This document shows positions 3,260-29,798 of a DNA stretch of 64,000 bases, one piece after another (within the stretch, counting starts at the first letter, position 1; each line of letters starts with the position of its first letter). The stretch comes from a virus, in the UHGV virus genome UHGV-0371537; one strand, 5' to 3'. Made by a program: the position numbers and the translations under genes. Under the pieces are notes generated by a model, which saw only the letters and a list, made by a program, of their open reading frames with translations, searched no databases and was not told the DNA's origin.

Positions 3260-3538
3260 ATGAATCGTACTGAATTTGTTGCCCACATTGCTTCGACCCA
3301 GAACATCACCAAAGGCGAAGCGGAGAAAGTAGTGGCATCCTTTATCGACGGCGTTAAAACTGCAGTTGCTGCAGGTGCGTCTGTACAGCTGGTCGGCTTC
3401 GGCGCGTTCGAAGTTAAAGCGCAAGAAGCGCGTGAAGGTCGCAACCCTCTGAACGGCCAGACCATTCAGATCGCGGCGAAAAACGTTGTGAAATTCAAAG
3501 TGGGCGAAGGTCTGAAGAACGCTGCCAACGGCAAGTAA
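3260..3538 (+). CDS. HU/IHF-family DNA-binding protein
   Basis: 92 aa; ...GFGAFEVKAQEAREGRNPLNGQTIQIAAKNVVKFKVGEGLK matches the HU/IHF fold signature; SD GGAGAAA upstream; terminator follows. Confidence 0.85.
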   Translation: MNRTEFVAHIASTQNITKGEAEKVVASFIDGVKTAVAAGASVQLVGFGAFEVKAQEAREGRNPLNGQTIQIAAKNVVKFKVGEGLKNAANGK

Positions 3539-3589
3539 TTCTATCTGACGCGCGGCCTGGCTCTGCGACGCAGGGTATGGCAAAAGAGA

Positions 3590-7462: not shown

Positions 7463-8577
7463 TGGCGATTGCTAAAATCGGCGATCTGCATATCGGGAGC
7501 CGTAATGGTTCCCGTTACGTTCGCGACTTCATTAAGAACTATCTCATCAATTATTTCATCCCCGAGCTGGTCGCCTCCGACATCTATGAGGTGTGGCAGT
7601 TCGGTGATACGTTTGATGTCCGTAAATTCATGTACGGGCGTGACAAAGACTGGATGAAGGATGAACTCACCCCTGCGTTGAAAGCGGCTGGTATCAAGTG
7701 GAATGGTATCGTGGGCAACCATGACATCACCCTGGAAGAGTCCAACCGCATCAACTGGCCATCCTACCTGAACGAACTCGACCCTGACGTCTACCACTAC
7801 TACAGTGAACCGACCGAAGTGATGATTGAGGGTGTTAAGACCCTGCTACTGCCGTGGATCAACAAGGAGAACTATGATGCGTCTATTAAGGCGATACAAA
7901 ATACAGACGCCAAGTACTGTTTTGCGCATTTGGAGTTGGCAGGGTTCAAAATGTACCAGTCCTCTACTTGTGATCACGGTCAGATCGACGTTACTCTCCT
8001 TTCCAAGTTTGACCGGGTCGATACGGGGCATTTCCATACCCGTTCGATGGAAGGTAACATTCAGTATATTGGGACTCCGTATCACCTGAACTGGGAAGAC
8101 TACAAAGACGGCACCAACCGTGGCTTCTATGTAGACGACATGCGTGGCGGTGAAGTCTTCATCCCTAATGCCGAGCACCAGACGCTGTTCCGCTACGTGG
8201 AATATGACTACACCAAATTGTCCTCCGATGACGAAGGCAATTGGATCGACCCGGAATGGCTGAACACAGGCTTGGGTATTGAAGGACAGATCGTTAAGGT
8301 AATCGTACAGAACCGCGACAACGCCAAGCATTATGAGAAGTTCTGTGATGCGATGAAGCGTTGCAAGTGTATTGACTACAACTTCATCGACCGGACGATT
8401 ACCGTGGCGGCCGAGAAGGTTGAGGTCACCGAAGAGATGGTGGCAACCGATGCGGTGGAAGTCCTGAAGAAGGATATCCGCGCCGGGAACAACATCCAGC
8501 GCCCAGAAAATGTCTGCAAGCTGGCTGAGTACTTCTACAACGCTGCCCAACAACGCCTGAACAAACTGGACGCATAA
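7462..8577 (+). CDS. recombination endonuclease subunit, gp47/SbcD/Mre11-like metallophosphatase
   Basis: Metallophosphoesterase motifs GDLHIG, GNHD, GHFH; followed directly by the Rad50-like gene. Confidence 0.8.
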   Translation: MAIAKIGDLHIGSRNGSRYVRDFIKNYLINYFIPELVASDIYEVWQFGDTFDVRKFMYGRDKDWMKDELTPALKAAGIKWNGIVGNHDITLEESNRINWPSYLNELDPDVYHYYSEPTEVMIEGVKTLLLPWINKENYDASIKAIQNTDAKYCFAHLELAGFKMYQSSTCDHGQIDVTLLSKFDRVDTGHFHTRSMEGNIQYIGTPYHLNWEDYKDGTNRGFYVDDMRGGEVFIPNAEHQTLFRYVEYDYTKLSSDDEGNWIDPEWLNTGLGIEGQIVKVIVQNRDNAKHYEKFCDAMKRCKCIDYNFIDRTITVAAEKVEVTEEMVATDAVEVLKKDIRAGNNIQRPENVCKLAEYFYNAAQQRLNKLDA

Positions 8578-8578
8578 C

Positions 8579-10915
8579 ATGACCCAAAGTACAGATATCC
8601 TGGCCAAATTTGGCAATCTTCTGAAGGAAGCTGACACCCCGGTAGAGGTGGAAGTCCCATTCGAAGTGCGTGATAACATTACGCACAAACTGACCTTCCG
8701 CAAAGGCCGCGCCAAGAACTTCCGCTCCATCGGCAATCAGTTCATGGAGATTGATTACCAGCGCAACCCGGCTACCCTCGTCACGTCCGATGACAACGGC
8801 GCGGGTAAATCCACGATGCTGGTGTGGCTGTTGTTCTTCGTATTGTACAACGACACGTACAGCAAGAAGGAGAAGAAGGCAGGTCTGGTGAACTCACAGA
8901 GCCGCAAGGAATGTGTGGGCGAGGTGGAGTTTGCCTGTCGCGGCAGCGAATGGAAGGTTCGCCGTGGCATTAAACCTGACTTTGTTGAAGTCTACCAGAT
9001 GGCGGACGGCAAATGGATGCAGATCGATAATGAAGCAGCCAAGGCCGACATGAACAAGTACATCGTGAACCTCATCGGCGTGGACCAGAAGATGTTTGAG
9101 AACTCTCTGGTTCTGGGTAAAGAGAAGTTCATTCCGTTTACGGAGATGTACACTGCCGACCGCCGCGCCATGGTGGAGACGATTTGGGACTTGGGCTTCT
9201 TCAGCCTGATGAACGAAGATGTCAAGGCCGCCATCAAGAAAGCAAACGAAAAGCTGGACACAATCGCAAATGAATGTGCTTTGAAGGTTGTTGACCACAC
9301 CAACAAGAAGACGCAGCTGCAGCAGATAGAGCAGTCCAATGCCCTTATCCAACAGCAGTCGGCTGATATTCTTGTGCAGCAACAGGAAGCACTGACTTCC
9401 CTGGACGCTGACATCGCCACCCAGAATGAAGAGCGCACCCGCCTCACAGCTGTGGAGTTTGAAGCCACCCAGGAAATGAAGACGGTGGAAAGCCGCCTGC
9501 ATGATGAATCCATGGTTGAGATCGAGGCTGTGAAGAAAGACTTTGAAGCCAAGATCCAAACCGTGAAGAATGCTGCTCAGGACAAGGCTGACGATTATGA
9601 ACGCATCGAAGTGTCTACCGCCGAGCATGATCTTCAGGTCTTGCGTGACCGCGCCTTTACAGTGGCCGAAAGCAAGAACACTCTACTCACCGAGCGCAAT
9701 GCAAACCTGGATGCCCTGAACGCTGCTATCCAACGCCGCCAGCAGGGTGAGAACTTCCGCATCAAGTTCCAGACCGAAATGGACGGACATCAGTCGGCCA
9801 TCAAGCGCTTCCACGACATGGGGACTTGCCCTACCTGTACCCAACTGGTCTCCGATGACACCAAGGCGCGGATTGAGAGTGAGTACAATCCTCAGATCCA
9901 GGAACTGCAGTCGAAGTTAGATCAACTGGACAAAGTTACCGCCGATATCAATGTCCTGATCGATGACCACAAGGCTCAGGACGATAAGTTGGTTGCCGAT
10001 ATTGCTGTGTTGGACGCTGAACTGGATGCAATGCGCAAGCAGGCCGACGAAATCGTTGACAACATCAAACAGCTGCGCCGTGACATTCAGGGGTTCCATG
10101 ACGCCGCCACGATCGAGTGTAACTCTCTGAACCGTGAATGTCAGCAGAAGATCCTTGACATCCGTAAGGCGTTGAACGTTCGTTTTGAAGACATCACTGC
10201 ATCGCTGCAACAGACGCGGGAGAACGCCGTTAGCGGGATTAAAGCCGTCGATGATAAGATCGCCGAGCTGAAAGCCCGTCGTGCTCCTCTCGTGGCGTCG
10301 ATTGCCGATCTGGAGCGTAAACTGTCTATACAGCCGACACCCACAGCCGACCTGGAGAATGCCATCTCCTCGATTGAGGGTGAACTGGAAGATCTATACC
10401 AGCGCCGCGAGGATGCTGACCAGGAACTTCAAGACTTACAGCACCTGTTGTTCTTCCTGAAGGATGACCAGACCAAGGCGCGCATCATCGCCCTGTACCT
10501 GCCATTCCTCAATAGCAAGATCAACGAGTATCTTGAAGCCCTTAACATGTTCCTGGACATCGTTGTTGACGATACCTTTGAGATCACCATGAGTGCAGCA
10601 GGTCGCAAGGGGCAGAGCATCTTTTCCTTGTCTACTGGCCAACGCAGTCGTCTGAACCTGGCTGTGACATTAGCCCTGCGTGATGTGGCTAACCTCAAGG
10701 CATCAGTGCAGTGCAACCTGTTCGTGCTGGATGAAATCCTTGAGAACATGAGCGAGCGCGGGGTGCAGGAATCGGTTGAGATGCTGAAGCATAAGTTCGG
10801 CGGGAACAACCTGTTTGTCATCAGTCAGCGTGAGCAGGAGTTCCAGGAATACTTCCAACACAACATCCGTTATGGCCTGCGAAACGGCCTGACCGAAGTT
10901 ATCAAGAAGGATTGA
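8579..10915 (+). CDS. recombination ATPase subunit, gp46/SbcC/Rad50-like
   Basis: Walker A DNGAGKST, long coiled-coil centre with CPTC zinc hook, Walker B LFVLDE at the C-terminus. Confidence 0.85.
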   Translation: MTQSTDILAKFGNLLKEADTPVEVEVPFEVRDNITHKLTFRKGRAKNFRSIGNQFMEIDYQRNPATLVTSDDNGAGKSTMLVWLLFFVLYNDTYSKKEKKAGLVNSQSRKECVGEVEFACRGSEWKVRRGIKPDFVEVYQMADGKWMQIDNEAAKADMNKYIVNLIGVDQKMFENSLVLGKEKFIPFTEMYTADRRAMVETIWDLGFFSLMNEDVKAAIKKANEKLDTIANECALKVVDHTNKKTQLQQIEQSNALIQQQSADILVQQQEALTSLDADIATQNEERTRLTAVEFEATQEMKTVESRLHDESMVEIEAVKKDFEAKIQTVKNAAQDKADDYERIEVSTAEHDLQVLRDRAFTVAESKNTLLTERNANLDALNAAIQRRQQGENFRIKFQTEMDGHQSAIKRFHDMGTCPTCTQLVSDDTKARIESEYNPQIQELQSKLDQLDKVTADINVLIDDHKAQDDKLVADIAVLDAELDAMRKQADEIVDNIKQLRRDIQGFHDAATIECNSLNRECQQKILDIRKALNVRFEDITASLQQTRENAVSGIKAVDDKIAELKARRAPLVASIADLERKLSIQPTPTADLENAISSIEGELEDLYQRREDADQELQDLQHLLFFLKDDQTKARIIALYLPFLNSKINEYLEALNMFLDIVVDDTFEITMSAAGRKGQSIFSLSTGQRSRLNLAVTLALRDVANLKASVQCNLFVLDEILENMSERGVQESVEMLKHKFGGNNLFVISQREQEFQEYFQHNIRYGLRNGLTEVIKKD

Positions 10916-10917
10916 TT

Positions 10918-11082
10918 ATGAACTACGAACAAATTAAACTGGCTATTCTGATCTTTGCATGCATCATTGACATCATTGCATTTTCTCGTGAAACCGAAAG
11001 GAAAAACTACCTGAAAGCACTGGGGTATCTCGGGTTCTCTGCCTGGTTCTGTTATCTACTTGCAGGTCAAATCCTGAAATGA
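10918..11082 (+). CDS. small hydrophobic protein (54 aa), not in ORF track
   Basis: ATG overlaps gp46 stop; MNYEQIKLAILIFACIIDIIAF...FSAWFCYLLAGQILK has two hydrophobic segments; stop overlaps next start. Confidence 0.3.
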   Translation: MNYEQIKLAILIFACIIDIIAFSRETERKNYLKALGYLGFSAWFCYLLAGQILK

Positions 11083-11408
11083 AAGTCGTCCACTTCAAGA
11101 AGGAGCCATATGACGTCTACATCGGGCGTCCCGGGAAATGGGGAAACCCGTTCGAGGTCAAAGACCACGGGCGGGGGAACTGCATCGAGTTGTTTGAAGA
11201 CTACTTGTATGTGCGCCTGATTGAAGGGGATATCACCGAGGATGAACTCCTTGAGCTTGATGGGAAGATCTTGGGGTGTTGGTGTAAGCCGCGCCCCTGT
11301 CACGGAGATGTTTACGTCAAAGTCATTGGTCGTATTAAACTATTCCGCAAGCTGGGTAAATCCTTTACTGAACACCTGAGACAAACATATGTCAGAATCA
11401 AAAGATGA
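11079..11408 (+). CDS. DUF4326-like protein
   Basis: GNPF ... CWCKPRPCHGDV pattern, as I recall it for DUF4326. Confidence 0.45.
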   Translation: MKVVHFKKEPYDVYIGRPGKWGNPFEVKDHGRGNCIELFEDYLYVRLIEGDITEDELLELDGKILGCWCKPRPCHGDVYVKVIGRIKLFRKLGKSFTEHLRQTYVRIKR

Positions 11409-11673
11409 AATCCAAGACTCCTGTGACATTGCGGTTGAAATCTGGAACCGTCGGAACCCGCATTACCAGGTGACCGTCACGCCAAATCGCTACCTTGAGC
11501 AGGGTGGTTTGATTGTTGTTGATGCTGTGGTTGCGTTCAACAAGTACGCCGACATGCAAATCCTGGACGGCAACTTCACTGTCGCGACCAAGACGGCTTG
11601 GGATGACCCGATGGAGTTTGTCTACGGCTGGCTGGAGTGTATCGAAGAATCCTACCACCTCATCTACGAATGA
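11389..11673 (+). CDS. hypothetical protein
   Basis: ORF overlapping the preceding gene end; terminator follows. Confidence 0.35.
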   Translation: MSESKDEIQDSCDIAVEIWNRRNPHYQVTVTPNRYLEQGGLIVVDAVVAFNKYADMQILDGNFTVATKTAWDDPMEFVYGWLECIEESYHLIYE

Positions 11674-11680
11674 GGCTGAA

Positions 11681-11713
11681 GGGCACTAAATATCACGTGC
11701 CCTTTATCTTTTA
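11681..11713 (+). terminator. rho-independent terminator
   Basis: GGGCAC-taaatatcac-GTGCCC hairpin followed by TTTATCTTTT. Confidence 0.6.
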
Positions 11714-11772
11714 ACCCCTGTCAGGAGGCTCAATCGAGCTGCAAGTCGACAAACCACATAAGGAACGCCATC

Positions 11773-12387
11773 ATGACGATGACAACGTTGAAGGCCATGG
11801 CCTTGTCCGTGACCTTTACCATTGCCAGCGGGAATGTGCACGCTTCCCAAAATACAAGTCAATGTGTTTATGATTTCTCTGAGCAACAACTTAATACGCT
11901 GGCAACTGCCTATCACATAGGCAAGACACAAGATCTTGGTTACACTCTGGCCGCCATATCTTGGCGAGAGAGCCGCGCTGGTGAAGATGTAGTGTCAATG
12001 CGCTATGGACTCAAGGCGGCCAACATGGGAGCCTTTCAGAACAAGGTGAAGACAGTTGGTGATCGCGAAGGTTGTAAGAATCGCAAGTGCTATGCCAATG
12101 TCGCCATAAAGTTGCTGACCGACCAAGAATATGCCGCGCAAGCCGCCCTCGAAGAGATGCAGTTCTGGCTGACCTATCACAAGCAGAATGTACGCAAATC
12201 CCTCTCCTCTTACAATGCTGGCTTCGCCCGTAATCCCGCATCGAACGCTTATGCCGCTGACGTCGTGAAGAAAGCTAAATATCTTCAGAAATGTGTGTCC
12301 TTCAAAGGCCGGACCATCTCCGAGGTAGATCCTCAGGTGATCGCCATGAACAAGCGCACGATAGAGAAACTGAAGAGGACAAGATAA
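11773..12387 (+). CDS. secreted protein with lytic-transglycosylase (SLT)-like motifs
   Basis: N-terminal signal peptide (MTMTTLKAMALSVTFTIASGNVHA); E-S (ISWRESRAGE), G-x-x-Q (MGAFQ) and YNAG (SSYNAGFARNP) in SLT-like order. Confidence 0.4.
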   Translation: MTMTTLKAMALSVTFTIASGNVHASQNTSQCVYDFSEQQLNTLATAYHIGKTQDLGYTLAAISWRESRAGEDVVSMRYGLKAANMGAFQNKVKTVGDREGCKNRKCYANVAIKLLTDQEYAAQAALEEMQFWLTYHKQNVRKSLSSYNAGFARNPASNAYAADVVKKAKYLQKCVSFKGRTISEVDPQVIAMNKRTIEKLKRTR

Positions 12388-13025
12388 TGAACATCACTCC
12401 ATCTCAGACCGGATATGAACATATCTTGGTCTTCATCGCTCTACAGGGCGCGAAGGAAGGCATCATCGTATCCGAGTACTCGGGGACTGTGCGCCTTGCC
12501 GATTACGTCGCACCCGAGGCGTTCATTAAGAAGTGTATTGATGCGTGGTGCCTCTATGCCCTCGGCACGTATCCTGCCCCTCCTGAGGGCGAGCTGTTGT
12601 TTACTGTACCGACTCCGGCTGCTGGCGATACGGACGCGATCTTTGCCGATATGCTGGCCAAGGGGTATCTGGTGTATGATATCACTCACGATGTCTACTC
12701 CTTCACCTCGCTGAACACCGTGTTTGGGTTCACCATCACGTCTGAAGCCAACATCCCTGACTGGGGCATCTTGGCGTGGGGCGTTGACGGCCTGGGCGCA
12801 ACCTATGCATCGTCCGATGTCGGTCCTGTGTTGATTGATGAGGGTGTAACCATGGAGCAGTACCTTGCTCAGTTCCCTCAGCACAATATCACAGGCAGCG
12901 ACATCATTTTAGTTCAGCCTGGTGCTATCGCTCTCCCCCGTTTGGTGGATGGATGGAAGCCTCAGCTGAAGGATATCATCGCCGGGATCAGATTCCATAT
13001 TCCTGTGGTGAACCCAACGCCGTAA
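12387..13025 (+). CDS. hypothetical protein
   Basis: ATG overlaps upstream stop (TAATGA); track ORF starts earlier in the same frame. Confidence 0.45.
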   Translation: MNITPSQTGYEHILVFIALQGAKEGIIVSEYSGTVRLADYVAPEAFIKKCIDAWCLYALGTYPAPPEGELLFTVPTPAAGDTDAIFADMLAKGYLVYDITHDVYSFTSLNTVFGFTITSEANIPDWGILAWGVDGLGATYASSDVGPVLIDEGVTMEQYLAQFPQHNITGSDIILVQPGAIALPRLVDGWKPQLKDIIAGIRFHIPVVNPTP

Positions 13026-13055
13026 AAATAATTCAATAAAAGGGGCTTTCGCCCC

Positions 13056-13084
13056 TTTACTTCTTCAATATCCTTCCCTATACT
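13056..13084 (+). promoter_or_regulatory. sigma70-like early promoter TTTACT-N17-TATACT
   Basis: -35 TTTACT (13056-13061), 17-bp spacer, -10 TATACT (13079-13084); directly after a hairpin. Confidence 0.55.
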
Positions 13085-13576: not shown

Positions 13577-15565
13577 ATGGCCACCCCATCTTTCTTAAAT
13601 TTCCTTGAAGAGTCTAAACAATTAGACGAAGCGTTCAACTCCGCTCCGTATGAGCTGACCATGGGTAAGAAGAACGCAGGCGATGTGTTCTTCACCTTCA
13701 TCGACGAAGATGAAAAGGAATACCGTATTCAGTTCTATACCCCACAGGGGCTGGGCAAGAACGTTCGTCAGGTCTTCATCGGCCAGAAGCGCGGCTCCGT
13801 CTACCCTGATGCCATCGCTCGCTTCAAAAACCCAATGCGCGTCATCGCCTCCATGATCGAAGCGACCAAGCAGTTCCTGGCGACCCCTCTGGGCAAGACC
13901 ATCGATGGTTATGCTGTCAACTTCTCTAAGAAAGCGCTGGAACGCGGGATGACCCTGATTCCTAAGATCATCCGCCAGTCCGGCCTGAAGCAGAAACTGA
14001 ACGTCATGGACCTGACTTACGCGCCTGTCCCTGACCGTGGTTATGTGTGGTTGGTCCGCAAGGGCAAAGATCCGGCTCAGGTATTCGACGGTCCGAAGAT
14101 GCAGGGCATCACCTGGGATGATCCAGACAAGGTCGGTGACGTTCCGGTTCAGAACAATACCCCAGATGTGGGGACTTCATCTTCTGTTGATGATTCCAAC
14201 GGATGGAAATTAACTTCAAACGGGGATCAGCCTATGTTGATCTGGGTTGGCAAAGAGAGAGGCCGCATGAACACGGCAAATATCGCTCCCCACTACAATG
14301 AGCCAGGCGTGTATGTTGGCGCATACATGAATGAGAAATCTGTGCGTGGGCAAAGTGCTGATTTCATTGCTCGTCAGTTGAAATTACCGCAAGTCCCTAT
14401 CAGTATCCTGAATGATTTCACCACGGCGTCCACAAAATTTTGGAAAGGTTCTCAGCAGAAGTCTGCGCCAGCTGACTCCAACACCACTATTGGTGCTCGG
14501 GGTGTGGGAACTGGGTCTGGTTCTTCTGAAATCGAAATCAACCGCGACTGGTACAACAGCTCAGACACTGGTCTGGTGTTGAAGAGCGGGCGCGACCCGA
14601 TTCGCGGAAACTACACCCGCTTGATGAGCGGTTCGAGAGAAGTAGCCACATTCTATGGCTATGATTTTGACAAATACCCAGACGGAACTGAAGTATCTTG
14701 GAATATGAAGCGCGGCTTCACCAACCAAGACTTGGTCGGTGCGTCCATGACCAAACAGAAGAAAGGCATGTACGATCAGTACACTTTCAAGAAAGGTGCT
14801 CAGTTAATTCTGGTGGTGGACGTTGATACCAGCAACAATACCAACACCCTCAGTTCTAACGACCTAAAAATCCCGCGCAACGCCGAAGTATTCGGTGAAA
14901 CTGGTAGTGGTTTCTCCGTTCGGTGGGCTGTCAATTTCCCCGAAACGGGAAAATATGCCGGTACTTCTATGATAACCAACGTAACCTATTATCATGACAA
15001 AGGCAAAGTTGCATTCACCCCAATTGTCTCTCAGAAAGGGCGTACCCTGAACAATCCGAAGACATATGAACTTCCTTTGAACAAAGATTTGGTCCAGAGT
15101 GTGATTGATGAGATTTCATCAAAAATGGTATATCTTTCCAGAAACCTCCAACAGTTGAAAAGTCAGACATACAACCCAAACCAGGTTTTCTTGAATGATA
15201 TAACCATCACGGATAAAGGTGAAGTGATTTGGAACGATTACAACTTGTCTGACGGCAAAGTTACACAAATTATGCTGTCCATGATAAGCGCAGAAAATAA
15301 ACGCTTGGAGAAAGTGACAAACAGGCCGGATATCACATTACCAAAGAAACAAGCCGAAGTAGTAGAATTTATAAACCGGATGATTGATATTGATCTCGGA
15401 CCTTATTTGAGAGAACCCAAAAAACGTGATGTGGTATTATTCGACTCTTCTGAATTGTCGATAAACCAACTCAACAACATAGAACGCCTGGGAAGAGAAA
15501 CAGGAAAATGGTCTCTTCAGTCAAACGGCGGTATGGGTCATGCACTATTTCTGAATGTTTGGTGA
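13577..15565 (+). CDS. large hypothetical protein (662 aa)
   Basis: Long ORF with AGGAGAA SD; no motif recognised. Confidence 0.55.
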   Translation: MATPSFLNFLEESKQLDEAFNSAPYELTMGKKNAGDVFFTFIDEDEKEYRIQFYTPQGLGKNVRQVFIGQKRGSVYPDAIARFKNPMRVIASMIEATKQFLATPLGKTIDGYAVNFSKKALERGMTLIPKIIRQSGLKQKLNVMDLTYAPVPDRGYVWLVRKGKDPAQVFDGPKMQGITWDDPDKVGDVPVQNNTPDVGTSSSVDDSNGWKLTSNGDQPMLIWVGKERGRMNTANIAPHYNEPGVYVGAYMNEKSVRGQSADFIARQLKLPQVPISILNDFTTASTKFWKGSQQKSAPADSNTTIGARGVGTGSGSSEIEINRDWYNSSDTGLVLKSGRDPIRGNYTRLMSGSREVATFYGYDFDKYPDGTEVSWNMKRGFTNQDLVGASMTKQKKGMYDQYTFKKGAQLILVVDVDTSNNTNTLSSNDLKIPRNAEVFGETGSGFSVRWAVNFPETGKYAGTSMITNVTYYHDKGKVAFTPIVSQKGRTLNNPKTYELPLNKDLVQSVIDEISSKMVYLSRNLQQLKSQTYNPNQVFLNDITITDKGEVIWNDYNLSDGKVTQIMLSMISAENKRLEKVTNRPDITLPKKQAEVVEFINRMIDIDLGPYLREPKKRDVVLFDSSELSINQLNNIERLGRETGKWSLQSNGGMGHALFLNVW

Positions 15566-16965: not shown

Positions 16966-17319
16966 ATGGTTAACGCGAGTATTTTCATCAACCGTGGACT
17001 GCTTGCTATAGCCCACTCTCATGCCCTGCACTTCGTTACAACGTCCTATGCCAAGCACAAAGCTCTCGGGGAGTTCTACGGGGAACTGGAGGACTTGCTG
17101 GACACGTTTACCGAAGCATACATCGGTGCGGGTGGCCAGTACGTTCCGTCGTTTGAGAACATCAAGCTCTATAACCCAGACCCTATCTCCTATGTCAACA
17201 GCGTGGTGATAGACGTCGATGGCATCTACAGGCAGTGCGACTCCCACCTTCAGAACACGCTTGATGAAATCAAGACGCTGTGCTATCAGACGATCTACAA
17301 ACTGAAGCAGCTGTCGTAA
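16966..17319 (+). CDS. hypothetical protein
   Basis: ORF with TAAATA element about 31 nt upstream. Confidence 0.4.
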   Translation: MVNASIFINRGLLAIAHSHALHFVTTSYAKHKALGEFYGELEDLLDTFTEAYIGAGGQYVPSFENIKLYNPDPISYVNSVVIDVDGIYRQCDSHLQNTLDEIKTLCYQTIYKLKQLS

Positions 17320-20542: not shown

Positions 20543-21337
20543 ATGGCCATTCTAAAACTTGGCAACCGTGGCACTGAAGTGAAGGCACTTCAGGATAGCC
20601 TCAACAAAATCGGCTTCACCCTCGTCGCCGACGGCATCTTTGGTAAGGCAACAGAGAACGCTGTCAAGACTGTTCAGGCGGGTGCGGGGCTTGTCATCGA
20701 CGGTATCGTGGGTCCAAAGACCTCCTATGCTATTCGCAACGCTGGAGACGCCCATCAAGATCACCTGACCGAGGCTGACCTTATCGATGCGGCTAATCAG
20801 CTTGGAGTTGATCTCGCCTCTGTAAAGGCGGTCAACCAGGTGGAATCCCGTGGCACTGGCTTCACCAAGTCAGGTAAGATCAAGACATTGTTCGAACGCC
20901 ACATCATGTACAAGAAGCTCATGGCGAAGTTCGGCCAGGCTCGGGCGAATGCTATAGGGCAGATGTACCCGACGTTGGTCAGTCCTTCTGCAGGTGGGTA
21001 CACGGGCGGCGATGCAGAACTGGATCGACTTCATGCGGCCATCAACATCGACGAGGATTGTGCGTACGAGAGTGCCTCATACGGTCTCTTCCAGATCATG
21101 GGCTTCAACTGCCAGGTCTGTGGGTATGCCAATGCCAAGGAGATGTTCAATGACTTCCTGACAGGCGAACGTGCTCATCTGATGGCATTCGTGAAGTTCA
21201 TCAAGGCCGATGCCAAGCTCTGGCAGGCTCTGAAGGACAAGAACTGGGCTGAGTTTGCGCGGCGCTATAATGGTCCGGCGTATGCCAAGAACCAGTACGA
21301 CACGAAGCTCGCTGCTGCATACAAGAGTTTCAGTTAA
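20543..21337 (+). CDS. endolysin: N-terminal peptidoglycan-binding domain + C-terminal muramidase-like domain
   Basis: N-terminus LKLGNRGTEVKALQDSLNKIGF...DGIFGKATENAV (PG_binding_1-like); C-terminus ...YGLFQIMGFN...FARRYNGPAYAKNQYDTKLAAAY (DUF3380-like). Confidence 0.7.
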   Translation: MAILKLGNRGTEVKALQDSLNKIGFTLVADGIFGKATENAVKTVQAGAGLVIDGIVGPKTSYAIRNAGDAHQDHLTEADLIDAANQLGVDLASVKAVNQVESRGTGFTKSGKIKTLFERHIMYKKLMAKFGQARANAIGQMYPTLVSPSAGGYTGGDAELDRLHAAINIDEDCAYESASYGLFQIMGFNCQVCGYANAKEMFNDFLTGERAHLMAFVKFIKADAKLWQALKDKNWAEFARRYNGPAYAKNQYDTKLAAAYKSFS

Positions 21338-28187: not shown

Positions 28188-29798
28188 TTACTCTTCGGTG
28201 CCGAAATTACCACCATTGTCTTTTAATTCTGCCTTGATATCAATCTCACCTGGACCCGTAGGGGATGCAGGGGTTGCACCTGACAGAGAAGAGGCGCGAC
28301 CAGCACCTTCCGCATATTTGATGTTGCCATTAATCGTCTGGGCCACAGTCAGTTTGTCGGCGATGATCTCTGTTGCCAGAATCTTAGGAACCTTCAACGT
28401 CCCGCCGACCTCCAGAGTCTCACAGATAATACGCAAAATATTCTGCGCCTGCAACTCAGCCAGGTTGCTGAATTTCATCAACGCTGTGCCAGCAACAACA
28501 TTAGAATAGTTGTTGGAATGCAAATGATAGACTTCACCAGTCTTGCGCTGCACTTCCGTTCCTTTGATCGTCAGGTTGTGATCGCCGCCAACATAATAAC
28601 GTTTGTTGAACATCGTCAGATCATAATGATCTTTCACAGACTTGTTCACAACGTCACCGTCTGGCAGCATTTGTTTGTACGACCCGGACATGTGCATCCA
28701 GTGAAGACGTTCGCCCCCCGGTGTGTCATCCACTTCCATGATGTGGCCAGCCCGAGAAGCCATGACGTTGTTGTACGGATACTTGGACCCACCCGCAGCC
28801 GGAACCATAGTTTCGCCAGTGTTGTCAATGTCCTGAACACGGCCTGTTGGTGCTGGCGTTGCCTGCTCTTTCGGAGTCCGATCTGGAATTGGTTCTGACC
28901 ATTTACCGTTCTGTTGGGCGGGGGCAGCCGCAGCTGTGTTTGCAGGTCCAGGCCAGCGATAGCCCAAGACCGAAGAACGGCTGAAACGACTGACCTTCAC
29001 TGAATCGGATTGGTTGCCCCCGATACACCAGACATAGTTGGCATCGAACTTCTGCACGAACGCCACATGGCCGAATGTCGGGTTGTTACCGCGCCGGAAG
29101 ACCACGATAGCGCCATACTGAGGTGCCGACAATGGACTACCCCACGTCAGGTAAGATCGGGCAAGAGCGGAGCGTGTGGAAGTGTATCCGGCCTTTAACA
29201 TAACCCAACCAACAAACGCAGCGCACCAGGATACTTCATCTTCAGATGCACCAAGCGAGGTTGTCTTGTGATACTCAACGATGCGGGGGTTGTTGTTGAA
29301 CTTGCCAGCATATTCTTTGACGCCAAGTTCACCACGGGCGATAGTCATCCATTTTTCAGGATCATACCCACCCACAGGAGGCTGAGGGTCTGGCTGAGGT
29401 TCGTCTTCTTGCTTTACAGGTACATCAGTGACAGCATTGTACGCCTGACGTTCAACAGACATGACGACCTGCCCCAGAGCCAGGGGGTTTGTGTCCGCCC
29501 CATCAGTCGGGGTCGCACCCGGCCAGGTCCATGCGATTCTGAGATTCTGGTATGCGTCATCCAGCGCGAACCCCATGACTTCCGTGCCGACAATGATACC
29601 CGTAGGGGACCAACCTAAACCTGCCGAGGAGGCATTCGACGCAGGCATCATCACTTTTGCCCATGGGAGTTTATCCGTAGGCAAGAGGACGGGATCATCT
29701 GTATGTATGCCGTGTATGCGAACGGCCACGCGCCCGTTTTCATCAGGATCATTGACGTCTTCAACGGTGCCATAAAACCATCTCATTTTGTCTAACAT
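28188..29798 (-). CDS. baseplate central spike (gp5-like) with internal cell-wall hydrolase-like domain
   Basis: N-terminal gp5/VgrG-like OB segment (GTVEDVNDPDENGRVAVRIHGIHTDD...LPWA); middle CHAP/NlpC-like region (WCAAFVGW ... GHVAFV); C-terminal repetitive beta-rich tail. Confidence 0.6.
   Translation of the reverse strand: MLDKMRWFYGTVEDVNDPDENGRVAVRIHGIHTDDPVLLPTDKLPWAKVMMPASNASSAGLGWSPTGIIVGTEVMGFALDDAYQNLRIAWTWPGATPTDGADTNPLALGQVVMSVERQAYNAVTDVPVKQEDEPQPDPQPPVGGYDPEKWMTIARGELGVKEYAGKFNNNPRIVEYHKTTSLGASEDEVSWCAAFVGWVMLKAGYTSTRSALARSYLTWGSPLSAPQYGAIVVFRRGNNPTFGHVAFVQKFDANYVWCIGGNQSDSVKVSRFSRSSVLGYRWPGPANTAAAAPAQQNGKWSEPIPDRTPKEQATPAPTGRVQDIDNTGETMVPAAGGSKYPYNNVMASRAGHIMEVDDTPGGERLHWMHMSGSYKQMLPDGDVVNKSVKDHYDLTMFNKRYYVGGDHNLTIKGTEVQRKTGEVYHLHSNNYSNVVAGTALMKFSNLAELQAQNILRIICETLEVGGTLKVPKILATEIIADKLTVAQTINGNIKYAEGAGRASSLSGATPASPTGPGEIDIKAELKDNGGNFGTEE

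What the first reader, a model, noticed from the sequence alone, without database searches (positions are those of the whole stretch)
11773..13025. Secreted SLT-like protein co-transcribed with an unknown partner, separate from the endolysin
The protein has a cleavable signal peptide and E-S, G-x-x-Q and YNAG motifs in lytic-transglycosylase order. The phage already encodes an endolysin (20543..21337) and a spike hydrolase. A periplasm-targeted transglycosylase expressed from its own unit with an overlapping downstream gene suggests a role other than end-of-cycle lysis, such as envelope remodelling or exclusion.
Basis: partly seen in the sequence, partly recalled or inferred. Interest (0 to 1): 0.4.

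Follow-up and report, generated by a model that had tools for sequence, protein, structure and literature searches.

The report
Secreted T4 Vs.1-type murein transglycosylase
This Vi1-like (Ackermannviridae) phage gene encodes a small exported cell-wall-cutting enzyme, a relative of the uncharacterised phage T4 protein Vs.1; many databases mislabel it "RegB", and its biological role has never been tested.

Summary

It is not an orphan. It is a homologue of phage T4 Vs.1 (31% identity), a family present in about 2,100 phage genomes and on Helicobacter chromosomes. The catalytic Glu is invariant and paired cysteines co-vary. The SLT resemblance of vs.1 was published in 2006. The "RegB" label on this gene in many Ackermannviridae records is wrong.

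The "unknown partner" (true start 12387, TAATG overlap, DUF7270) is an acidic protein without a signal peptide. Mass spectrometry found it in LIMEstone1 virions, where ORF1's orthologue was not found.

The pair sits between two terminators behind a late-promoter-like CTAAATA. The separate endolysin (muramidase) and the CHAP-bearing spike are confirmed.

The most likely reading is a Sec-exported periplasmic lytic transglycosylase that acts on host murein late in infection. An accessory role in lysis is my inference. Exclusion has no support. This is a new member of a known kind and of modest interest.

The parts
11677..11712 (+). Intrinsic-terminator-like hairpin (10-bp stem 11677-11686 / 11697-11706, 10-nt loop) followed by TCTTTT. 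It insulates the unit from the upstream gp55-gp47-gp46 and small-ORF transcription.
   Evidence: Sequence. RNA fold shows the stem in both the MFE and the centroid structure. A terminator is annotated at the same place in Klebsiella phage Magnus. The hairpin is conserved in CAU_YEP3, SPTD1 and Magnus.
11686..11692 (+). CTAAATA, a late-promoter-like -10 motif lying in the loop of the terminator hairpin.
   Evidence: A 'Kuttervirus late gene promoter' is annotated at the homologous site in SPTD1, and a 'putative late promoter' next to it in LIMEstone1. CTAAATAcCcc is a published Vi1-like regulatory motif (PMC7283392). The 7-mer count in the window (6) is not above chance (expected 3.5). The motif is TAATTA in Magnus and absent in phiMAM1.
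11703..11772 (+). 5' leader with Shine-Dalgarno AAGGAA (11760-11765). It is unusually conserved.
   Evidence: 95.7% identical to Magnus, against 78.7% for ORF1 DNA. No Rfam match. No significant fold.
11773..11844 (+). Predicted Sec signal peptide, residues 1-24, with cleavage at VHA|SQ.
   Evidence: Sequence features. AF2 pLDDT is below 50 for residues 1-28. Equivalent N-termini occur in T4 Vs.1 (...MMAHS|SEH), JSE Vs.1 and most family members.
11845..12387 (+). Mature SLT-type lytic transglycosylase domain (about 20.3 kDa, pI 9.6). Catalytic Glu66 is at 11968-11970. Cysteines are at 31, 101, 106 and 174. Residues 175-204 form a basic C-terminal tail.
12275..12281 (+). Second CTAAATA, inside the 3' end of ORF1 (codons K-A-K-Y-L). 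It is a possible extra late promoter for ORF2.
   Evidence: Annotated as a late promoter in SPTD1. TAAATA is kept in all five genera or species compared, including phiMAM1, but protein constraint (the K-Y codons) could explain this.
12387..13025 (+). ORF2, DUF7270 / phrog_3923, 212 aa, 22.9 kDa, pI 4.3, no signal peptide. Its start overlaps the ORF1 stop (TAATG) and a GAGGA Shine-Dalgarno lies at 12375-12379. It is a virion-associated protein in a close relative.
13038..13065 (+). Terminator-like hairpin (GGGGC-TTTC-GCCCC flanked by A and T runs) that ends the two-gene unit.
   Evidence: Conserved with loop changes in CAU_YEP3, SPTD1 and Magnus. Annotated as a terminator in LIMEstone1.

Best explanation
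ORF1 encodes a small, single-domain family-1 (SLT-type) lytic transglycosylase that is the Ackermannviridae orthologue of phage T4 Vs.1.

Shown here: sequence homology to Vs.1, an SLT fold, and an intact and invariant catalytic Glu-Ser plus the other SLT motifs.

Inferred from sequence:
- It is made with a cleavable Sec signal peptide, exported to the periplasm independently of any holin, and stabilised there by two disulfides.
- It cleaves host murein glycan strands from within.
- In this phage it is transcribed late, from a CTAAATA promoter embedded in an upstream terminator.
- It is translationally coupled to a cytoplasmic, virion-associated protein (DUF7270) that is a genomic neighbour and not a functional partner.

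Most likely role (inference, about 45%): an accessory, pre-positioned muralytic enzyme. It would loosen the sacculus and then help degrade it when the holin collapses the membrane potential. It would add a third bond specificity to the muramidase endolysin and help the spanins. The precedent is the Sec-exported, holin-activated signal-peptide endolysins. It is not a virion component and not an RNase.
For: Homology:
- T4 Vs.1: 31% identity over 165 aa, E 9e-19. JSE Vs.1: 31% over 195 aa including the N-terminus, E 4e-24.
- phrog_600, E 1.4e-58.
- 2,138 phage records carry a relative, and the ten commonest host genera are all Gram-negative.
- 811 cluster representatives at E<=1e-3 in metagenomes.

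Fold and active site:
- E66 in 167/167, S/T67, G86 in 160/168, and Y147, G150 and Y160 in 168/168.

Export:
- n/h/c regions with VHA|S. N-terminal hydrophobic segments in 148/174 relatives.
- Cys101/Cys106 always co-occur (26/26). Cys31/Cys174 co-occur in 87 sequences.
- The mature protein has pI 9.6.

Not in the virion: LIMEstone1 mass spectrometry lists ORF085 but not ORF086.

Late unit: terminator, CTAAATA, 1-nt overlap and terminator.

Separate endolysin and spike.

Precedent for export without premature lysis: Campylobacter phage F352 Lys (188 aa, signal peptide + SLT) needs Sec for export and a holin for activation (PMC7692668).
Against: - No enzymatic, localisation or genetic data exist for any Vs.1-family member in the literature I could search.
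- The signal peptide was not scored with a dedicated predictor. Its h-region is short and only moderately hydrophobic (Kyte-Doolittle 1.87).
- Pfam SLT is borderline, and only 1 of 10 distant relatives passes it.
- Late timing rests on a 7-mer that is not enriched in the window, is altered in Magnus and is absent in phiMAM1.
- In T4 and JSE, vs.1 has no late promoter and lies among genes of the early/middle strand. In Felix O1-like phages it follows rIIA and rIIB. That argues against a purely end-of-cycle role across the family.
- F352 Lys is not a sequence relative (-3 bits against the family profile), so the holin-activation analogy rests on architecture only.
Confidence: 0.7

Rival explanations
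1. The exported transglycosylase is active during infection for a purpose unrelated to lysis. Examples are remodelling or enlarging the sacculus of the infected cell, altering muropeptide turnover, or changing the envelope so that superinfecting phages or their spike enzymes fail (exclusion).
For: Export does not depend on the holin (signal peptide). T4, JSE and Felix O1-like relatives sit in early-type gene neighbourhoods without a late promoter. Chromosomal housekeeping homologues in Helicobacter, between glyS and pgm, show the family can act on murein non-lethally. The phage already has a full endolysin.
Against: There is no direct evidence. No known exclusion protein is a transglycosylase (own knowledge: T4 Sp and Imm, T5 Llp, P22 SieA). 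PADLOC gives nothing meaningful. In this phage the gene lies behind a late-type promoter and a terminator, which is too late for early exclusion.
Confidence: 0.2
2. The N-terminus is not cleaved and acts as a signal-anchor-release (SAR) or membrane tether. The enzyme would then be held inactive on the inner membrane and released on depolarisation, as in P1 Lyz or R21.
For: The hydrophobic segment is rich in Ala, Ser, Thr and Gly and only weakly hydrophobic. A Fletchervirus homologue of F352 Lys was first predicted to be SAR (PMC7692668).
Against: The uncharged core is only about 11 residues (A8-A18), too short to span a bilayer, and is followed by a canonical V-x-A|S site. A Cys follows a few residues after the site in most members. 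F352 Lys was shown experimentally to be a signal-peptide type, not SAR.
Confidence: 0.07
3. It is a catalytically silent lysozyme-fold protein that binds murein or another protein, acting for example as a regulator or decoy for host transglycosylases or inhibitors.
For: Pfam SLT is marginal. Motif II Gln is replaced by His in about half of the family.
Against: The catalytic Glu and the Ser/Thr after it are invariant in 167 sequences, as are Tyr147, Gly150 and Tyr160. That is the pattern expected of an active enzyme.
Confidence: 0.05
4. It is a virion-associated entry enzyme like T7 gp16 or PRD1 P7, packaged together with its virion-protein neighbour.
For: It is co-transcribed and translationally coupled with a protein found in virions, inside a cluster of mass-spectrometry-confirmed virion proteins (LIMEstone1 ORF078-085).
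Against: The orthologue ORF086 is not among the 39 virion proteins of LIMEstone1. A cleavable export signal is incompatible with cytoplasmic assembly. The spike already carries a CHAP enzyme.
Confidence: 0.03
5. It is a RegB-type site-specific endoribonuclease, as many GenBank records of relatives state.
For: Only the annotation labels 'RegB' or 'endoribonuclease' in Maynard, Coodle, XF4, LIMEstone1, EspM4VN and others.
Against: BLASTP against T4 RegB gives E 0.7. RegB scores -2.1 bits against the family profile. There is no Pfam, NCBIfam or PDB RegB match. The real relative is vs.1, the gene next to regB in T4, which probably explains how the label spread.
Confidence: 0.01

Closest known systems
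Phage T4 Vs.1 (NP_049725) and its orthologues in T4-like phages (phrog_600)
   Same: Homologous over the full length, including the signal-peptide-like N-terminus. It has the same single-domain size (181-205 aa) and the same E-S, G-x-F-Q, S-Y-N-x-G and Y motifs. The SLT similarity was already noted in PMC1524935. No function is known.
   Different: T4 and JSE Vs.1 have no cysteines, no late promoter upstream, and a different downstream gene, vs. The Ackermannviridae proteins add a basic tail of about 30 residues and two Cys pairs, and sit behind a late-type promoter coupled to DUF7270.
SLT domain of bacterial family-1 lytic transglycosylases (E. coli Slt70, P. aeruginosa Slt and MltF; Pfam PF01464)
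   Different: Only 16-20% identity. Pfam is borderline. There are no accessory domains. Motif II is G-A-F-Q, and Q or H across the family.
Signal-peptide endolysins, e.g. Campylobacter phage F352 Lys (188 aa, SP + SLT) and Oenococcus fOg44 Lys44
   Same: Same architecture and size: Sec signal peptide plus one muralytic domain, in a T4-related myovirus with scattered lysis genes. Sec-dependent export and holin-dependent activation were shown for F352 Lys (PMC7692668).
   Different: No detectable sequence relationship to F352 Lys. F352 Lys is that phage's only endolysin, whereas this phage has a separate muramidase endolysin. Holin dependence is untested here.
Specialised secretion-system transglycosylases (EtgA, IagB, IpgF, VirB1, P19)
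   Different: The sequence match is not significant (E 0.1). There is no associated trans-envelope machine gene here. EtgA's second acidic residue is not conserved in the phage proteins (own reading).
Virion-borne phage transglycosylases (T7 gp16, PRD1 P7, phiKZ gp144)
   Different: Those lack export signals and are packaged or act as endolysins. This protein has an export signal and was not found in virions of a close relative.

Membership tests
SLT / family-1 lytic transglycosylase (Pfam PF01464) | Profile match above the curated threshold | tested here: met
   21.4 bits against a cutoff of 21.3, E 2e-4, residues 57-162. This is marginal. Only 1 of 10 distant relatives passes.
SLT / family-1 lytic transglycosylase (Pfam PF01464) | Goose-lysozyme-like alpha-helical fold superposable on the Slt70 catalytic domain | tested here: met
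SLT / family-1 lytic transglycosylase (Pfam PF01464) | Catalytic Glu followed by Ser (motif I), then G-L-M-Q-like (II), A-Y-N-x-G (III) and a conserved Tyr (IV), in that order | tested here: met
   E66-S67, G86-A-F-Q89, S146-Y-N-A-G150 and Y160. E66 is in 167/167, and Y147, G150 and Y160 in 168/168. Q89 is Q or H.
SLT / family-1 lytic transglycosylase (Pfam PF01464) | Non-hydrolytic cleavage of MurNAc-GlcNAc giving 1,6-anhydroMurNAc | not testable with these tools
   Needs purified protein, sacculi and muropeptide HPLC-MS.
T4 Vs.1 family (phrog_600) | Significant full-length sequence similarity to T4 or T4-like Vs.1 | tested here: met
   E 9e-19 (T4) and 4e-24 (JSE) in pairwise BLASTP. phrog_600 E 1.4e-58 over 173 of 178 profile positions.
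T4 Vs.1 family (phrog_600) | N-terminal Sec-type signal sequence on a single-domain protein of about 160-205 aa | tested here: met
   Sequence features only. The window has VHA|S, T4 has AHS|S and JSE has THA|S. 148 of 174 relatives have a hydrophobic N-terminus. No dedicated predictor was available.
RegB endoribonuclease (the label used in many records) | Sequence or fold similarity to T4 RegB | tested here: not met
   BLASTP E 0.7. -2.1 bits against the family profile. No Pfam or PDB match.
Signal-peptide (Sec-exported, holin-activated) endolysins | Cleavable signal peptide fused to a muralytic domain | tested here: met
   Inferred from sequence and fold. Cleavage has not been demonstrated.
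Signal-peptide (Sec-exported, holin-activated) endolysins | Is the phage's principal endolysin, with activity gated by the holin or the membrane potential | tested here: inconclusive
   A separate canonical endolysin exists, so it is not the sole lysin. Gating cannot be tested in silico. There is no sequence relationship to F352 Lys.
SAR endolysins | Uncleaved, weakly hydrophobic N-terminal transmembrane segment of about 18-20 residues | tested here: not met
   The uncharged core is about 11 residues and is followed by a V-x-A|S site. This is a sequence-based judgement only.
Virion-associated peptidoglycan hydrolases | Presence in purified virions | tested here: not met
   Evidence from the literature, not from a tool. 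LIMEstone1 virion mass spectrometry lists 39 proteins including ORF085 but not ORF086 (PMC3296691).
Secretion-system specialised LTs (EtgA, VirB1 type) | Genetic association with a trans-envelope secretion or assembly machine | tested here: not met
   The neighbours are gp46, DUF4326, DUF7270 and virion proteins. Sequence similarity to EtgA is not significant (E 0.1).

The most novel reading that the evidence does not exclude
Vs.1-type enzymes may form a widespread, still uncharacterised class of holin-independent periplasmic transglycosylases shared by T4-like, Felix O1-like and Vi1-like phages and by Helicobacter chromosomes. On this reading they would have a dedicated non-lysis function in the infected envelope. 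Examples would be controlled sacculus remodelling that conditions lysis timing or lysis inhibition, protection against superinfection, or muropeptide signalling. In Ackermannviridae the gene would have been re-wired to late expression under a conserved 5' leader.
Probability: 0.15. Interest if true: 0.55.

Novelty: new member of a known kind. Interest (0 to 1): 0.3.

Why it matters
Practical value:
- It corrects a mislabel ("RegB endoribonuclease") that has spread through dozens of Ackermannviridae genome records.
- It links this gene to T4 vs.1, so one experiment in T4 would inform more than 2,000 phage genomes.

Biological value: large virulent myoviruses of Gram-negative hosts consistently carry three murein-active enzymes. 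These are a spike enzyme, an endolysin and an exported Vs.1-type transglycosylase. The role of the third has never been tested. A lysis-priming or envelope-conditioning role would refine the holin-endolysin-spanin model of lysis. It is also relevant to engineering therapeutic Ackermannviridae and T4-like phages. In itself the finding is ordinary: a conserved accessory gene whose resemblance to SLT was already recognised.

Tried and rejected
- **RegB identity.** Tested by BLASTP and by profile and rejected.
- **PDB sequence search.** The single protein found nothing. The family profile gave only a non-significant EtgA match.
- **NCBIfam and PADLOC.** Neither gave anything meaningful.
- **Rfam and folding of the conserved leader.** Nothing significant.
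- **CTAAATA enrichment in the window.** Not above chance, so the promoter call rests on annotations in relatives and on position.
- **The search for related loci with broad alignments.** Failed twice for lack of a conserved stretch. A 3-sequence alignment worked but sampled only the Helicobacter branch.
- **F352 signal-peptide endolysin as a family member.** Tested and rejected. I keep it as an architectural analogue only.
- **Literature searches for functional work on vs.1.** They returned only the 2006 comparative-genomics paper. One search was wasted on 'vs.' used as a statistical abbreviation. One accession recalled from memory was wrong.
- **Lysis genes next to the endolysin.** I looked for a holin or spanin there and found none. 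The 'holin' label on the 56-aa protein at 10912..11082 in MK-13 is unsupported by PHROGs.

Full report
**What the window is.** The 3-kb region around the finding is 94% identical to Yersinia phage CAU_YEP3 and 84-95% identical to many Salmonella, Escherichia, Shigella, Enterobacter and Dickeya phages of the family Ackermannviridae (274 records). ORF1 is 99.5% identical in protein to Enterobacter phage EspM4VN. ORF2 is 98.6% identical to Dickeya phage XF4. The local gene order is gp55-like sigma factor, gp47, gp46, a 56-aa membrane protein, DUF4326, a 94-aa ORF, ORF1, ORF2, and then a run of proteins known as virion components in relatives.

**Checking the observation.** ORF1 occupies 11773..12387 (204 aa).
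- Its N-terminus, MTMTTLK/AMALSVTFTIA/SGNVHA|SQ, has the n-, h- and c-regions of a Sec signal peptide with a V-x-A site. I had no dedicated predictor, so this is a reading of the sequence.
- Three independent observations back that reading. Residues 1-28 are the only low-confidence stretch of an otherwise confident AlphaFold model (pLDDT 86.9). Of 174 relatives, 148 have a hydrophobic N-terminal segment, many with textbook A-x-A ends. The four cysteines behave as two pairs across the family: C101 and C106 always occur together (26/26), and C31 and C174 co-occur in 87 sequences. That is the pattern expected for disulfides in an oxidising compartment.
- In a 168-sequence family alignment the catalytic Glu is invariant (167/167), as are Y147, G150 and Y160. 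Position 89 is Gln or His.
- Pfam SLT passes only marginally (21.4 against 21.3 bits), and direct sequence search of the PDB finds nothing.

**The transcription unit.**
- Upstream boundary: a 10-bp hairpin (11677-11706) with a T-tract lies upstream of ORF1. A terminator is annotated at this place in Klebsiella phage Magnus.
- Upstream promoter motif: the hairpin loop contains CTAAATA (11686-11692). The same sequence is annotated as a Kuttervirus late promoter in SPTD1, and a late promoter is annotated beside it in LIMEstone1. CTAAATAcCcc is a published regulatory motif of Vi1-like phages (PMC7283392).
- Internal motif: a second CTAAATA lies inside the 3' end of ORF1 (12275-12281). It is also annotated as a late promoter in SPTD1 and is kept in all five relatives compared. 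It encodes the conserved K-Y residues, so protein constraint may explain its conservation.
- ORF2 start: the ORF2 start codon shares one base with the ORF1 stop (TAATG at 12385-12389) and has its own GAGGA. This 1-nt overlap is kept even in Serratia phage phiMAM1, at 55% protein identity.
- Downstream boundary: a second hairpin terminator follows ORF2 (13038-13065).
- Caveats: the 7-mer is not enriched in the window (6 found, 3.5 expected). The upstream copy is TAATTA in Magnus and absent in phiMAM1.

"Co-transcribed as its own unit" is well supported. "Late" is likely but not shown.

**What ORF1 is related to.** A tblastn search of 50,697 phage records finds relatives in 2,138 of them.
- Beyond Ackermannviridae these are T4-like phages, where the hit is the gene called vs.1, Felix O1-like phages, and assorted Vibrio, Aeromonas, Acinetobacter, Shewanella and Pseudoalteromonas phages.
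- Pairwise, ORF1 matches T4 Vs.1 at 31% identity (E 9e-19). It matches JSE Vs.1 at 31% over 195 residues, including the signal-like N-terminus (E 4e-24).
- T4 Vs.1 begins MRKALLAGLLAISMMAHS|SEH and carries the same motifs.
- A profile search of 1.84 billion cluster representatives finds 811 members, mostly 160-200 aa.
- One branch is a chromosomal gene of Helicobacter, Wolinella and other Campylobacterales. In H. cetorum it lies between glyS and pgm.
- The marginal SLT similarity of vs.1 in T4-like phages was reported in 2006, with a suggested role in lysis (PMC1524935).
- I found no functional study of any member.

**The RegB label.** Many records call this gene "RegB", "site-specific RNA endonuclease" or "endoribonuclease". 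ORF1 has no similarity to T4 RegB: BLASTP E 0.7 and -2.1 bits against the family profile. In T4, regB is the gene immediately upstream of vs.1, which is the likely origin of the error. Some newer records already say "transglycosylase SLT domain protein" or "MltF".

**The partner.**
- ORF2 (212 aa, 22.9 kDa, pI 4.3, no signal peptide) is a full-length match to DUF7270 and phrog_3923.
- It occurs only in Ackermannviridae-type records (283), always abutting ORF1.
- In Dickeya phage LIMEstone1 the orthologue ORF085 (22.75 kDa) was identified in purified virions by ESI-MS/MS with 4 peptides. It lies within a cluster of virion proteins, ORF078-085. ORF086, the ORF1 orthologue, is not in the list of 39 virion proteins (PMC3296691).
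- One product is exported and the other is assembled into particles in the cytoplasm. Vs.1 homologues in other phage groups have different neighbours: vs in T4 and pnk in Felix O1-like phages. I therefore read the pairing as shared late expression and not as a functional partnership.

**The other murein enzymes.** The ORF at 20543..21337 is a PG_binding_1 + N-acetylmuramidase endolysin without a signal peptide. The gp5-like baseplate hub at 28188..29798 (-) carries a CHAP amidase/peptidase domain instead of a lysozyme. The phage therefore has three enzymes with three different bond specificities. ORF1 is the only one that can reach the murein without a holin or a virion.

**How it most likely works.**
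- Shown by computation: it has an SLT fold with an intact, invariant active site, and it is a Vs.1 homologue.
- Inferred from sequence: Sec export, signal-peptide cleavage at A24|S25, disulfide-stabilised periplasmic residence, and late transcription.
- Inferred from precedent: a Sec-exported transglycosylase need not lyse the cell at once. Campylobacter phage F352 Lys (188 aa, signal peptide + SLT) is exported by Sec and needs the holin for activation (PMC7692668). F352 Lys is not a sequence relative of ORF1, so this is an analogy in architecture only.

My preferred role is a pre-positioned accessory lysin or sacculus-loosening enzyme that contributes when the holin fires. I hold this at about 45%. 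The family's placement among early-type genes in T4 and Felix O1-like phages and the existence of non-lethal chromosomal homologues keep a non-lysis, envelope-conditioning role alive at about 20%. Nothing supports exclusion specifically.

**Verdict.**
- The gene is a new member of a known but functionally uncharacterised kind, the Vs.1 branch of SLT-type transglycosylases, so interest is modest.
- The useful outcomes are the corrected annotation, the link to T4 vs.1, the identification of the partner as a virion protein, and a short list of decisive experiments.

Noticed in passing
window 11677-11712; also L002 ~7895-7915 and ~8765-8800; L006 ~3520-3545 (-): The late-promoter motif CTAAATA lies in the loop, or at the 3' edge, of intrinsic-terminator hairpins. 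A late transcript starting just downstream would lack the 5' arm and escape termination. Read-through from upstream early or middle genes would be stopped. This looks like a recurrent promoter-inside-terminator design in Ackermannviridae.
   Followed up: partly
window 11703-11772: The 70-nt 5' leader of ORF1 is 95.7% identical to that of Klebsiella phage Magnus. ORF1 and ORF2 DNA are only 78.7% and 70.3% identical. There is no Rfam match and no significant fold. It is an unexplained conserved non-coding element, and it is not conserved in phiMAM1.
   Followed up: partly
window 28188-29798 (-): The gp5-like baseplate hub and spike carries a CHAP (cysteine peptidase/amidase) domain after the Gp5 OB domain, instead of the T4-type lysozyme domain.
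   Followed up: no
window 16966-17319 (+): This is a homologue of T4 rI.-1 (DUF5856, phrog_858, labelled 'starvation-inducible transcriptional regulator'). Its orthologue in LIMEstone1 (ORF078) is a mass-spectrometry-confirmed virion protein. The label and the virion location do not fit together.
   Followed up: no
window 10912-11082 (+): A 56-aa protein with two hydrophobic segments is labelled 'holin' in RefSeq Shigella phage MK-13 and 'putative membrane protein' elsewhere. PHROGs gives only an unknown-function family. No holin or spanin is evident next to the endolysin.
   Followed up: partly
L083 5842-6879 (Helicobacter cetorum) and loci L007-L086: Vs.1-family proteins are single-copy chromosomal genes across Helicobacter, Wolinella and Campylobacterales. 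They often carry long Lys/Pro/Gln-rich C-terminal tails, and in H. cetorum the gene lies between glyS and pgm. They get no Pfam SLT hit. This appears to be an unannotated bacterial transglycosylase family.
   Followed up: partly
window 13577-15565 (+): A 662-aa ORF (phrog_3867) has a C-terminus resembling an 'internal head protein' PHROG. Its length varies among relatives (1,596-2,388 nt), and it is split into two mass-spectrometry-confirmed virion proteins in LIMEstone1, ORF081 and ORF082.
   Followed up: no
window 11079-11408 (+): A DUF4326 protein (phrog_464) is labelled 'NrdA.1' in one relative. It overlaps the next ORF (11389-11673) by 20 nt.
   Followed up: no
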